Assembly (NCBI GenBank): GCA_964016885.1
Contig: OZ024740.1
Location: forward strand, 62,744,001-62,808,000
From: Eledone cirrhosa
Taxonomy: Eukaryota
Direction of reading: 5' to 3'
Length of the DNA stretch: 64,000 bases
Shown here piece by piece: positions 1,376-63,846 of the stretch. Position 1 is the stretch's first letter, and the number at the start of each line of letters is the position of its first letter. The notes beneath the pieces were generated by a model. It worked only from the letters and a program-made list of their open reading frames with translations, made no database searches and had not been told where the DNA came from. Made by a program: the position numbers and the translations under genes.

Positions 1376-2726
1376 TAAGAAGCACTATCGGCCAATACAA
1401 GCCAAAAACTCAGAAGAATATGGAGTATACATACATTAAAGCATAGGAAAATTATCGAGTAAAAATTATCAAGTAAAAATTGCTAAGGAAGTGAATAACA
1501 TTTTGAACCATATTACATATATAGTACAATGCAAAAACTAAAGCTAAACACAAGTGGTGATATAAAGCGAGAATTATTGTACTATATATAATATAATATA
1601 ATATAATATAATATATAATTGATAATGATAATAATAATAATATTAAAAGGCCCAATGTACATATATATATATATATACATATGTACACATATATACATAT
1701 ATATCAATACACATTTCCATCAATACAAACAGAAACTAACACTTATTAAGAGTTTAAATAAAGTTCTATATGATAGTTCTGTATGATATTTTTTCTCACC
1801 CTGTCTGTAACTCTATATGATTTGTTAAGTTATATGCCAATATTTTATAATATTGTTATTATAGTGTTATTGTAATATTTATATTGTTTGTGCAAATTAA
1901 CCGGAGATTATTAATTATATAATTATATAATTATATAGTATATTATATATTATATGTTTACTTTTACTCATTTCTTCATCATTTTATACTGTAAATAATA
2001 AATGTATTATATTTTTATTTTTATTTTTATTTTTATTTTTATTTTTATTTTTATTTTTATTTTTATTTTTATTCTTATTTTTATTCTTATTTTTATTTTT
2101 ATTTATATTTAAACTCTTAATAAGTGTTAGTTTGTGTTTGTATTGATGGAAATGTGTATTGATATATATGTATATATATGTACATATGTATATATATATA
2201 TATATGTATATTAGGCCTTTTAATATTATTATTATTATCATTATCAATTATATTATATTATATTATATTATATTATATTATATTATATTATATTATATTA
2301 TATTATATATAGTACAATAATTCTCGCTTTATATCACCACTTGTGTTTAGCTTTAGTTTTTGCATTGTACTATATTTGTATATTTGTAATATGGTTCAAA
2401 ATGTTATTCACTTCCTTAGCAATTTTTACTTGATAATTTTTACTCGATAATTTTCCTATGCTTTAATGTATGTATACTCCATATTCTTCTGAGTTTTTGG
2501 CTTGTATTGGCCGATAGTGCTTCTTATTGCTTTAATTGCCCTGATGAGTCCTTAATAGGACGAAACATTGTTGGCTAATAAAGACTTTTGATGTATTGAA
2601 GGCTTCTTTGGTTTATTTTCATAATTCTTCGGCTCTGTTTAATTACATTGAGCTATACCATTACTGTCATTTCTATAATATGAAGAGGGTGTTTAACTCC
2701 TACACACTCTAGTATTTTAATTCTTA
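1376..2726. mobile_element. Two-armed inverted insertion of a PLE pseudo-LTR-like sequence (family A), flanked by (TA)n
   Basis: ~1376-1761 is the reverse complement of ~2105-2526; the right arm continues through an HHR to (TA)n at ~2726. Confidence 0.75.
2534..2579 (+). ncRNA. Minimal type I hammerhead ribozyme
   Basis: attgcc CTGATGA GTCC ttaata GGAC GAAA C att G TT ggctaat: intact core, 4-bp stem II, GUU cleavage triplet, stem I gcc/ggc. Confidence 0.8.
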
Positions 2727-2822
2727 TATATATATATAACTTTGATAACTTTGATAGGTTTCGGCCAGTATTGGCCCAGGCCATGTCTAACTTAATAGCA
2801 CCACCTGGCGAAGTCTTACAAA

Positions 2823-60463: not shown

Positions 60464-61635
60464 GTTGTACTTTTACCCTCCCATTTCCAATTCACCGAAC
60501 GCTATCATGACTGTATGTGTGTGTTTGTGTGTTTGTGTGAATGTATGTATGTGTTTGTGTGAAAGTATGTGTATTTGTATGAATGGGACGTCACAGTTAG
60601 TGACTCTTGCTTCTTCCCACATCCCGGATGCAGCGGGAAGGGTGAAAGCTACAACATATATAATATATTTGCTTGTGTTTTCGTTCTGTAAGCATTATAT
60701 TAAATTTTTATACAAATGAGTTTTTAAAAAAACAGAGTTAAACTGTGTTGTAATAAATAAATAAAACGTTATACTTGTTTTACCCTCCCGTTCCCAATTC
60801 ACCGAACGCTATCATGACTATGTGTGTGTTTGTGTAAATGTATGTGTGAATGTGTGTTTGTGTGAATGTTTTTGTGTGAAAGTGTGTGTATTTATCTGAA
60901 TGTATGTCAGTGAGGGTGTTTTTTTATAAGTTTGTGTTTGCGCGATTATAGTTATATACTCATGCATATAGATGTATATATGTGCACAATCATACGCGTC
61001 AGCGTGTAGAAAGTCATACTCACTCTATCTCTCTTATCACAAACTCTCTCTTTTTATATATATGGCAGTTGAAGTGGTGGTGGTGGCGACGATATAGCGG
61101 AAGTCTAGAAATTTGTAACTTTGAAAAGAAGTCAATTTAAAATTATTTATGAATTCGAAATTTAGTTACGAAATTTAGTACATAAATTATGTAATATTCA
61201 TTCATTTTTTATTCAAAGTAATCGAACTTATTTTACAAACCGGATAAAAAAACTTATTCTGGATGCAGTCCCGCACTCCTTACTTTATTATTGTTTAGAT
61301 ACAACACGTGTCACCTTACTGCCAAGATGGGACCAATCCTTACAAAATCTATTGCCCATAATATGTTTCTAATAAAGTTTAACTCATTCAAATCTCTCTA
61401 TACTCCTTTCTTTTCTTGACCACATTTGATCATTAAGCCAATTATTTTTTCCCTCTCTATGGATCTCATTTCAATTCCTTACATTTCTTTGTTTACTACA
61501 TTAAGAATCTGTGTCCGAAACGTCAAACATTCTTCAACATATTCCTAAGCATGAAACTAATAAAACTTTGTGATTTTGAATCTCTGCAATTGTTTTCTCA
61601 TTTATTGACCTTTATATATATATATATATATATAT

Positions 61636-63846
61636 GGAGGAGGTTATAGTTCACTTGAAGCATTGTGTAATGAGGTATAAACGTTTGAATATGTATAATA
61701 AAGCCAAAACAATGCAGGTATGGACATAGAAAAAAGAAGAATGCAATTGCAAAAGATATTGTTGACAAATCGTCTTTTACCTTAGATTTATTTTAAACGT
61801 CCTTAATTTTCGAGATAATATCTCTTCTTCAGAGGGAAATAAATGTCTCAAACCAGCGTTCTAAATATCTTGCCAAGCCATGCTGACAGGAAATAGTATA
61901 GAGTATCTGTTCTATCTCTAATGTCAAAGAGTTAAAATTAGGTGGATAAAGAGTAGTCTCCCTTTAAAAGGGGTTTGTTTAGGTTTTTTTATTTTTTTAT
62001 TTTTTTTTTTTATATACATGCCTGTTTAAGTGTGTGGGAGAATGCATGAAGGTGTAAGTATGTGAGTGTGTGTGTGTGAGTGTGAGAAGATAAGTCTATT
62101 CGTAAATGTGGGGATAGGTGTTATCTGGTGTTAGAACTGGTTTTGTGTGTGTATGTGTGAGAGAGAATAAGTGGAGGTGTAAGCGTGTGTGTGTATGGGG
62201 TGTGTAAATATGGGGCTAGAAGCCCTATCAGGTTATAAATTGGGTGTTGAGTTCTAGTCTATTATTGATAGGTGGTTGTGTTTTTGTCTATAATTAGTGC
62301 TTCCTTAATTCTAAGACTGCCGAGGTTTCTTTCCTTAGTTTCTATCCTAACTGTTATGGTTTTGTCGGTGTTTTTGCATTTAACTAGGTGTTTCTTAAAT
62401 GAGGAAGCGTTAGTATTGAGGTGTTCTTTTATTCTTATATGGAGTGGTCTGGTGGTGCTACCTACGTAGAAGTTGTTGCATTTGTCACACTCTAGTCTGT
62501 ATACGACGTAAGCCTTGTGGCATAGGTCTGTGTCGTTGATGGGGCAGTTGGCTAGGCTGCAGCAGTTGTCATGTCTGGTGGAGTGTCTGTTGGCTAGCTG
62601 TCCGCGCAGAGAAGGACCTGAGTGGGCCAGTTTGATATCTAGTCCTTCTCGTCTGATGGCTCTGCGGATGGCTGTTGTTGTTTCTTCACTGAAGTGTGGG
62701 AGCTTCAGGAAGCAAGTGTTAGTGCCTCGAGTGTGGTGTCCTCTGTTCTTTCTGGCACGGTTTGTGGTGGATGTCGTGTATCCGTTCAGTTTGAGTACTT
62801 CCAGGAAATGTGTGGTGTGTGTGTCTCTGTCTCTAGCGTCGGTGCATTTGTTCCGGATACGTGCCAGTTCGTTCCTTATGTATCCGAACTTGGCACCGAG
62901 TGGGAGGGCCGATCTGAAATGTACAAACAGGTCCCTGCTGGCGGCTTTTTTATAGAAGCAGGTGTGGATGTTGCCTTCCTCTGTTACCCTGAGTTGGAAG
63001 TCCAGTAGGGATAGGGATCCGCGGTGATCGGGTTGTTCCATGCTGAACTTTATACTGGCGTCCATGCTGGAGAATGTTGTGTACATTTTATCTGCCTCCT
63101 CACGGGATGATGTGAGGATGAGTATGTCATCTACATATCGGGTGAAGAAGGCATGGGAATGGCAGGTGTTGAGGGCTCGGCATTCTAGCTGGTTCATGTA
63201 GGTGATGGCCAGCAGGCCCGATAGGCTGGATTCCATGGGTAATCCTGTTGTCTGTCTGTATGTGTGGTGGTGGAAGGTGAAGTACGTGTTGTCTACTGTG
63301 AAGGACAAAAGCTGGTGTATGTCCGTTGGGTGGAGGCCGTAGCAGTGGATGTCCTCTGCGACCACGCAGTCCGTCAATAAATCGACAGCTGGATGAGCGG
63401 GGACTGTAGTGTAGAGTGAGCCAACGTCGAGGCTAAAAGCGTATTTATTTAGTTTAAGTTGTTCTGGCTGGAGTTGGTGTAGTCTACGTATAACTTCGTC
63501 GGAGCTACTGACATGCCCGGGAAAGGTGGAGAGTAGAGGCTTGAGGACCTGGGAGAGGAGCCAGGAAATTTTGTATAGGGGTCCTTCTATGCTAGAGACG
63601 ATGGGTCTTATTTGCGTGTTAGTGCTATTCTTGTGGGTCTTGATGAGGTGGTAGAAAGTGGGCAGTCTGCTATTTCTAGTCTGCTTATTTCCCTCTGAAG
63701 AAGAGATATTATCTCGAAAATTAAGGACGTTTAAAATAAATCTAAGGTAAAAGACGAATTGTGAACAATATCTTTTGCAATTGCATTCTTCTTTTTTCTA
63801 TGTCCATACCTGCATTGTTTTGGCTTTATTATACATATTCAAACGT
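61636..63846 (-). mobile_element. 5'-truncated PLE (Cys-rich linker, Neptune/Nematis-like) with inverted pLTR arm at 63686-63846
   Basis: ORF 62262-63377: QTTGLPMESSLS, RYVDDILI, CCSLANCP, YVVYRLECDKC, YVGSTTRPLHIRIKEH; 63686-63846 = rc(61681-61842); (TA)n at both ends. Confidence 0.9.
63692..63726 (+). ncRNA. Minimal hammerhead ribozyme (also 61801-61835, -)
   Basis: cct CTGAAGA a GAGAT att ATCTC GAAA AT TA agg; stem III is the loopless palindrome AATT. Confidence 0.65.

What the first reader, a model, noticed from the sequence alone, without database searches (positions are those of the whole stretch)
2534..63726. Unusually dense, diverse hammerhead ribozyme collection
Seen: about 20 HHR-fold motifs from more than 10 mutually unrelated sequence families in 64 kb (near 2534, 7993, 19186, 19899, 24453, 25570, 26103, 31795, 35984, 37188, 37615, 38424, 45481, 45617, 48174, 48954, 49275, 52146, 52370, 55987, 56426, 56509, 57306, 61801, 63692). 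All have type I topology, many with palindromic stem III (CTAG, CAGCTG, CGATCG, CTGTACAG, AACGTT, AATT, TATATA). Known: minimal HHRs mark PLE pLTRs. Inference: most anonymous short repeats here are PLE or retrozyme ends, which implies many uncatalogued PLE families.
Basis: partly seen in the sequence, partly recalled or inferred. Interest (0 to 1): 0.75.

Follow-up and report, generated by a model that had tools for sequence, protein, structure and literature searches.

The report
Ribozyme-bearing ends of Penelope jumping genes
The 25 hammerhead ribozyme motifs are real and are likely the leftover tail ends of about 14 Penelope-type jumping-gene families and their short derivatives, a known pairing; what stands out is that two young, abundant families share an altered core letter and several carry an oversized arm.

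Summary
Observation confirmed: all 25 positions belong to type I hammerhead (HHR) families, 14 families in about 19 insertions. Eleven copies have an intact core and stems, 7 carry a family-wide core change, 7 are decayed. A descriptor tuned on this window gives 19 hits against 0.53 in shuffles; out of sample, 83 in 790 kb against about 2. So HHR density is a genome trait (about 310,000; bootstrap 213,000-425,000); the window is 2.4 times the average and like its neighbours. Four families sit at fixed distances from Penelope-like (PLE) ORFs (three Hydra-like, one canonical); 21 of 25 motifs have (TA)n within 250 nt downstream. PLE hammerheads and an octopus Hydra family are published. Not found in what I read: A at core position 4 in 18,127 exact matches against 76 with U (present in 12 of 12 intact-ORF elements), and 50-100-nt helix II arms. 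With the published descriptor the density (5 in 790 kb) is not exceptional. Cleavage untested. The scan has noted this system before, in this and other genomes.

The parts
2536..2577 (+). HHR, canonical core, family F0 (the only family Rfam RF00163 detects)
   Evidence: Hydra-like endonuclease 1.4 kb upstream in 1 of 27 copies
7993..8035 (-). HHR family F3, canonical core, U.U at base of helix II, palindromic helix III
19183..19272 (-). Long-helix-II HHR, decayed copy; inverted partner at 19354-19492
19900..19948 (-). HHR family F1, A at core position 4
24453..24503 (-). HHR family F1, inverted pair with 25570
25570..25620 (+). HHR family F1; the family ends a Hydra-clade element with a 713-aa frame elsewhere in the genome
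26103..26169 (-). HHR family F4, copy with A9 changed to G
31051..36235 (+). Full-length Hydra-clade PLE (A): two 998-bp pseudo-LTRs 98.4% identical around an 832-aa open frame at 32053-34551
   Evidence: motifs read against PMC8557442 section 11
31796..31842 (+). HHR family F8 in the upstream pLTR, C at core position 4
35985..36031 (+). HHR family F8 in the downstream pLTR
36986..37816 (+). 427-bp tandem dimer of family F3 with HHRs at 37188-37230 and 37615-37657; retrozyme-like
   Evidence: 482-bp seven-unit array in L046
38423..38485 (-). HHR family F25, canonical core, 12-bp helix II
45479..45531 (+). HHR family F9, canonical core, in a fold-back stub
45616..45751 (-). HHR with perfect core, 9-bp stem I and about 100-nt helix II arm; 3' end of PLE C
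46474..47806 (-). Broken Hydra-like PLE (C): RT-thumb and GIY-YIG fragments ending about 710 nt upstream of the 45616 HHR
48170..48268 (-). U3-A8 core HHR with long helix II; inverted truncated partner at 48447-48567
48954..49010 (+). Decayed HHR, family F12
49275..49310 (-). Minimal HHR family F11, canonical core; fits the published descriptor
52140..52216 (+). Decayed HHR, family F4
52332..56072 (-). Second, broken copy of PLE A with HHR at 52370-52416(-) and an inverted end with HHR at 55988-56034(+)
56424..56492 (-). HHR family F4, canonical core; head-to-head with a cut copy at 56504-56606(+)
57306..57365 (-). Decayed HHR family F13 (C3 changed to A)
61682..63845 (-). 5'-truncated canonical-clade PLE (B): RT plus GIY-YIG frame 62262-63797, HHR at 61801-61835(-), inverted end with HHR at 63692-63726(+)
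   Evidence: (RVT_1 E 8.5e-13, GIY-YIG E 2.6e-5)

Best explanation
The motifs are type I hammerhead folds in the terminal repeats of many repeat families, four of them tied here to Penelope-like retrotransposon ORFs, and they likely pile up because copying starts just downstream of the ribozyme, so even short truncated insertions keep it. Shown: fold, family structure, position 440-1420 nt behind the endonuclease and about 100-200 nt ahead of the ORF in tandem pLTRs, inverted second copies, (TA)n flanks. Inferred from established PLE biology: the element RNA is made from an upstream pLTR; the GIY-YIG domain nicks (TA)n; reverse transcription starts 20-250 nt 3' of the HHR and usually stops early or folds back; where helix III is a short palindrome, two tandem HHRs would pair and cut as a dimer to trim the RNA. 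Short tandem families (F3) would borrow the same enzyme. In the F1 (A4) and F8 (C4) families cutting is predicted to be weak or absent, yet both families multiplied recently.
For: 19 hits against 0.53 in shuffles; out of sample 83 in 790 kb against 4 and 0 in two shuffles. Compensatory changes on a sequence-only alignment and between long-arm subfamilies (read by eye). PLE A is intact between two HHR-bearing pLTRs, with 135 scored genome matches at 97-100% identity, many in 832-aa frames. 12 of 12 fetched 713-aa F1 elements carry the HHR in a pLTR. 16 of 28 copies of the 45616 family have an endonuclease C-terminus within 2 kb upstream, about 700 nt in the 14 listed. 21 of 25 motifs have (TA)5 within 250 nt 3', against 20% of random positions. 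Six of the listed sets are inverted pairs, the known PLE layout (PMC8557442 passages). Published Hydra HHRs show the same U.U helix II base and (TA)n targets.
Against: Seven of 14 families could not be tied to an ORF; my protein queries covered Hydra and one canonical element only. The descriptor was tuned on the window. No cleavage or expression data. 5 of 8 motifs folded no better than shuffles. No covariation could be shown for F1, whose copies are nearly identical. Clade assignment rests on motifs, not on a tree.
Confidence: 0.88

Rival explanations
1. Most unlinked families are true non-autonomous retrozymes that have no ORF-bearing parent of their own and spread through circular RNA using PLE enzymes in trans. 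This modifies rather than replaces the best reading.
For: F3 forms 427-482-bp tandem arrays without a long ORF; other arrays of 311 and 316 bp in L044, L218, L068; 19186 copies lie in tandem about 800 bp apart. Shared upstream sequence is short for F9 (up to 151 nt) and F4 (up to 359 nt). Known kind (PMC7229834 passages; bioRxiv 10.64898/2026.07.22.740005 part 1 of 5 and passages).
Against: Short shared extensions are also what heavy 5' truncation gives; loci were only 3-10 kb. No circular RNA evidence.
Confidence: 0.4
2. The ribozymes of the most successful families are dead passengers: the fold persists by descent or as a protein-binding landmark, and cleavage is not needed for transposition.
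For: A4 in 18,127 against U4 in 76 exact matches; C4 in 99 of 100 listed of 3,857. In vitro, catalytic mutants of an anole PLE HHR did not change insertion (PMC11167929 passages). An abundant unlisted family mostly survives as half-ribozymes.
Against: 23 of 27 clusters keep the canonical core and 3 the compensated U3-A8 pair (the threshold favours intact cores), which points to selection for catalysis. U4C lowers activity in vitro yet supports viroid infection (PMC3088659 passage). The rest of the F1 and F8 cores is intact.
Confidence: 0.3
3. The window is a special locus where ribozymes were concentrated or kept for a host function.
For: 16 per 64 kb against 5.1 expected for the four large contigs (P 0.005).
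Against: The flanking 200 kb are also rich (32 hits, P 0.20); the window was chosen for this trait; 7 of 25 copies are decayed; orientation is mixed (14 minus, 11 plus); searched families are dispersed repeats with hundreds to thousands of copies.
Confidence: 0.05
4. The motifs are chance matches in AT-rich, palindrome-rich DNA.
For: Rfam sees one site below cut-off; relaxed descriptors do hit (TA)n tracts (11 false rows).
Against: Shuffle controls, out-of-sample replication, covariation and fixed position in PLEs.
Confidence: 0.01

Closest known systems
Hydra clade of C-terminal-endonuclease PLEs, including Hydra-1_Obim (Craig et al. 2021, PMC8557442; section 11, passages, supplement part 2 of 59 and searches)
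   Same: RW(K/R), DKT and CxCx5C motifs, no CCHH, (TA)n targets, 3' type I HHR often with U.U at the base of helix II, inverted 5'-truncated copies.
   Different: Units are longer (about 4.2 kb for PLE A, about 3.3 kb for F1, against mostly under 3 kb). All Hydra rows in File S2 have the canonical first core box and a loop 2 of at most 10 nt; here two families have A4 or C4 and several have 50-100-nt helix II arms. Hydra was reported as a few families; here it is abundant and recently active.
[quoted passage not shown]
   Same: Type I, short palindromic helix III predicted to need a dimer, extra base after A9, U3-A8 variant, many unrelated families per genome, mostly solo truncated copies, close opposite-strand pairs.
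   Different: Their descriptor finds 3 of 25 here and 5 in 790 kb; most motifs here have a longer helix III or II. No octopus entry in the supplement searched.
Animal non-LTR retrozymes (PMC7229834 passages; bioRxiv 10.64898/2026.07.22.740005 part 1 and passages)
   Same: Tandem non-coding units of a few hundred bases, each with a type I HHR (family F3).
   Different: Circular RNA and activity not shown here; most window motifs are dispersed ends, not arrays.
Natural hammerhead core variants (Perreault et al. 2011, PMC3088659 passages)
   Same: U3-A8, U10.1-U11.1 and U4C are reported.
   Different: U4A does not appear in the passages read; figures were not seen.

Membership tests
Type I hammerhead ribozyme | CUGANGA, GAAA and UH boxes in type I order | tested here: met
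   11 of 25 copies canonical with all stems; 48174 uses U3-A8; 7 have a family-wide position-4 change; the rest are decayed
Type I hammerhead ribozyme | Three helices supported by covariation | tested here: met
   Counted for 1 of 14 families; two long-arm families by eye; not shown for F1
Type I hammerhead ribozyme | Rfam RF00163 gathering score of 34 bits | tested here: not met
   Best window site 29.1 bits; 18 genome sites pass, and the 2536 motif matches those loci
Type I hammerhead ribozyme | Self-cleavage at the UH site | not testable with these tools
   Needs an in vitro assay or RNA end mapping
EN+ Penelope-like element | Single ORF with RT and C-terminal GIY-YIG | tested here: met
   PLE B by Pfam. 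PLE A has no Pfam hit but shows the RT YRDD box and GIY-YIG-like motifs and a weak match to B's endonuclease
EN+ Penelope-like element | HHR in pseudo-LTRs, tandem or inverted ends | tested here: met
   for F8, F17, F1 and the 45616 family
EN+ Penelope-like element | Every HHR family traced to a PLE ORF | tested here: inconclusive
   4 of 14 firm, 2 single-place, 1 tandem non-coding, 7 unlinked
Hydra clade PLE | RWK-like, DKT, CxCX5C motifs; CCHH absent | tested here: met
   F1 frame by regex and PLE A by eye, against section 11. PLE B has CxxC inside GIY-YIG and is not Hydra
Hydra clade PLE | (TA)n insertion preference | tested here: met
   21 of 25 against 20% of random positions
Hydra clade PLE | Placement in the Hydra clade on an RT tree | not tested
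   No tree built
Non-LTR retrozyme | Tandem non-coding units each with a type I HHR | tested here: met
   F3 only among window families
Non-LTR retrozyme | Expressed as circular RNA | not testable with these tools
   Needs RNA data from this organism

The most novel reading that the evidence does not exclude
This genome holds roughly 300,000 hammerheads in dozens of Penelope families, and it is a natural mutagenesis panel: a family with over 18,000 near-identical copies spread with A at the conserved U4 position, another with over 3,800 copies with C, and several families carry 50-100-nt helix II domains that standard descriptors miss. Either these are new working hammerhead architectures, or the most successful Penelope elements show in vivo that ribozyme cleavage is dispensable and the fold serves another role, such as marking where the enzyme binds.
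Probability: 0.3. Interest if true: 0.65.

Novelty: new variant of a known kind. Interest (0 to 1): 0.42.

Why it matters
What PLE hammerheads do is an open question: PMC8557442 calls it unclear and PMC11167929 found cleavage unnecessary in vitro. Young families that differ at one core letter (U4, C4, A4) or in helix II length give ready natural test pairs. The work also shows that the published descriptor and Rfam miss most motifs here (3 and 1 of 25), so counts in other animals may be far too low, and hammerheads can be used to call the ends of unclassified repeats. The association itself, the dimer model, U3-A8, U.U and an octopus Hydra element are in print, which caps the surprise.

Tried and rejected
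Strict descriptors passed only 4 sites each because they forbade loopless palindromic helix III, the extra base after A9 and the terminal mismatch. I first read 45617 and 48174 as vestigial half-cores; wrong, the 5' core lies 65-100 nt further upstream. U.U at the base of helix II looked new but is published. 'Densest genome known' was rejected: my count uses a looser descriptor than the published ones; with the published one the sample gives 5 in 790 kb, about 6 per Mb, near 9,000 in Xenopus tropicalis (genome about 1.5 Gb, recalled). Eleven (TA)n false hits with two core mismatches (L223, L239) were dropped before the estimate. The repeat finder was swamped by microsatellites. Expression: no RNA holder listed; read laying not used. 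Papers not held: PMC3334697, PMC5785218 (Lunse et al., dimeric PLE hammerhead variants, the most relevant gap), PMC2271363, so the effect of U4A on rate and its absence from print are not settled. Literature searches: hammerhead+Penelope+octopus 5 papers, hammerhead ribozyme+cephalopod 4, hammerhead+U4A+cleavage 0, long helix II search gave viral 6-8-bp helices; the O. vulgaris repeat paper PMC13282606 has no 'hammerhead' or 'ribozyme' in its main text. Supplement file 1 of PMC4209133 and bioRxiv supplements were not seen. A long helix II has a partial precedent: loops of about 30-35 nt in Selaginella PLE-X1. Leads on rearranged Naiad hammerheads from the scan's notes made me check the 23079 repeat; it proved to be a type I long-arm family. 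I did not scan the window for rearranged folds.
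Full report
Setting. The window is G000:C1:62,744,001-62,808,000 of a 3.0-Gb genome, AT-rich and full of (TA)n. An octopod host is inferred only: the one taxon-named relative of PLE A among 120 listed is from Argonauta hians, and an octopus Hydra element is published.

Observation. Rfam lists one hammerhead, 2535-2579, 29.1 bits, below cut-off (150 of 157 rows shown). Two strict descriptors passed 4 sites each. After reading PMC4209133 I allowed a palindromic loopless helix III, an extra base after A9, a terminal helix II mismatch and U3-A8. 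This gave 19 hits at score 18 or more, all at listed positions, against 0.53 in 30 local shuffles. Because it was tuned on the window I froze it and ran it on new DNA: 39 hits at score 22 or more in 39 spread 10-kb stretches against 0-1 in three shuffles, and 39 more in 40 further stretches after dropping 11 (TA)n false rows. The six listed sites that failed were traced through genome copies. 45617 is a perfect-core motif with a 9-bp stem I and about 100 nt in helix II, with 298 exact matches to both core halves and compensatory differences in the L038 subfamily. 48174 has a U3-A8 core and a long helix II; 19186 has a long helix II with stems intact in sister copies. 52146, 56509 and 48954 are decayed members of families with intact copies. 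Tally: 11 intact canonical, 7 family-wide position-4 variants, 7 decayed; 14 families; about 19 insertions once tandem and inverted pairs are merged (my count). On a sequence-only alignment of 9 F4 copies, 8 of 21 pairs change on both sides and 0 of 500 shuffles reach the covariation score; related sequences can beat such shuffles, but the slid controls are also far lower.

Density. Short plus long-arm hits: 83 in 790 kb, 32 in the flanking 200 kb, 16 in the window; weighted estimate about 312,000 per genome (bootstrap 213,000-425,000); 27 sequence clusters in 131 hits. The threshold leaves out the A4 family. Stretches were evenly spaced picks, not random draws. The window is 2.4 times the mean: P 0.04 against all stretches, 0.005 against large contigs, 0.20 against its flanks, and it was selected for this trait. 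A generic core pattern for one helix III subtype gives 13,271 matches against 2,944 for the reversed control. Published counts are 120,000 in axolotl, about 5,000 in mussel and 9,000 in Xenopus, but with other descriptors; the published minimal descriptor finds 3 of 25 here and 5 in 790 kb, so a cross-species record is not shown.

What they belong to. PLE A (31051-36235) is an 832-aa frame between two pLTRs, each with an F8 hammerhead; 135 scored genome matches are 97-100% identical and many are full frames, so it is young. It has no Pfam hit but shows RWR, DKT, CxCx5C and no CCHH, the Hydra signature. PLE B (62262-63797) hits RVT_1 and GIY-YIG, has CxxC in the endonuclease, a hammerhead 438 nt downstream and an inverted end at its truncation. 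F1 ends a Hydra element with a 713-aa frame: 12 of 12 fetched copies, picked for their intact frame, carry the motif about 190 nt before or about 930 nt after the frame. The 45616 family has a Hydra-like endonuclease upstream in 16 of 28 copies. F0 and 48174 have one supporting place each; F3 forms tandem arrays of 427-482 bp; seven families are unlinked. 21 of 25 motifs have (TA)5 within 250 nt 3' (median 142 nt) against 20% of random positions.

Mechanism. Shown: structure, position, flanks, inverted pairs. Inferred: target-primed reverse transcription at (TA)n begins shortly 3' of the hammerhead, so truncated copies keep it and fold-back doubles it; this alone explains the density and diversity. 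Dimer cleavage through palindromic helix III follows PMC4209133, where activity was low; PMC11167929 found cleavage protein-dependent and not needed for insertion in vitro. Nothing here tests cleavage.

Variants. U3-A8, U.U at the helix II base and U4C are in print. F8 has C4 in 32 of 32 cores beside intact PLE A frames and 99 of 100 listed of 3,857 genome matches. F1 has A4 in 18,127 exact matches against 76 with U, so the change was in the master element; I found no report of natural U4A, but the most relevant paper was not held. Long helix II arms occur in 3 window families, in an unlisted fourth and in 5 of 27 clusters; published Hydra loops are at most 10 nt, Selaginella PLE-X1 about 30-35 nt.

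Earlier scan notes, read after my reading was fixed, report the same system, long arms, fold-back half-ribozymes and altered cores in this and other genomes; they are unchecked and are not counted as support. Sequence look-ups of three window motifs found nothing.

Verdict. Real, correctly read by the first stage, and a known kind of system; the window is a rich but ordinary sample of this genome. The fixed position-4 changes in young families and the long helix II arms make it a variant worth a cleavage assay. Interest 0.42.

Noticed in passing
window 16714-16819, 23079-23262, 23894-24029, 36424-36470, 36777-36968, 42984-43122; L067:6403-6540: An unlisted 15th hammerhead family survives mostly as half-ribozymes cut and folded back inside helix II; one longer copy shows the missing U3-A8 core and a roughly 55-nt arm. 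30 rows shown in the fetched DNA.
   Followed up: partly
   Followed up: partly
window 17421-17578(-); related pieces at 29384-29494, 42734-42803, 47748-47934, 51093-51159, 58134-58202: A 5.8S rRNA-like sequence (89.6 bits) lies in a dispersed repeat; possibly an rRNA-derived SINE-like element.
   Followed up: no
window 8428-16612(-) and 3328-5797(-): Nested non-LTR retrotransposon copies: a 689-aa RT frame at 11598-13667 with 264-bp tandem ends, and a broken AP-endonuclease plus RT element.
   Followed up: no
L044:6131-7911, L218:8596-9717, L068:529-2328, L046:449-3403, L077:1893-3434: Retrozyme-like arrays of 311, 316, 482 and about 700 bp, several ending in an inverted unit; the 316-bp array has a U3-A8 core and the 700-bp one a long helix II.
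   Followed up: partly
window 56424-56492 and F4 copies: A C.C mismatch at the fourth pair of helix II recurs across diverged F4 copies while neighbouring pairs covary.
   Followed up: no
G000:C1 (one search list): A very frequent family has a canonical core, U.U and only a 2-bp helix II; its helix II resembles that of the A4 family and may be its sister.
   Followed up: no
L036:2149-2268(-): A Hydra-like element whose hammerhead combines C4 with a roughly 90-nt helix II: a second family with C4.
   Followed up: no
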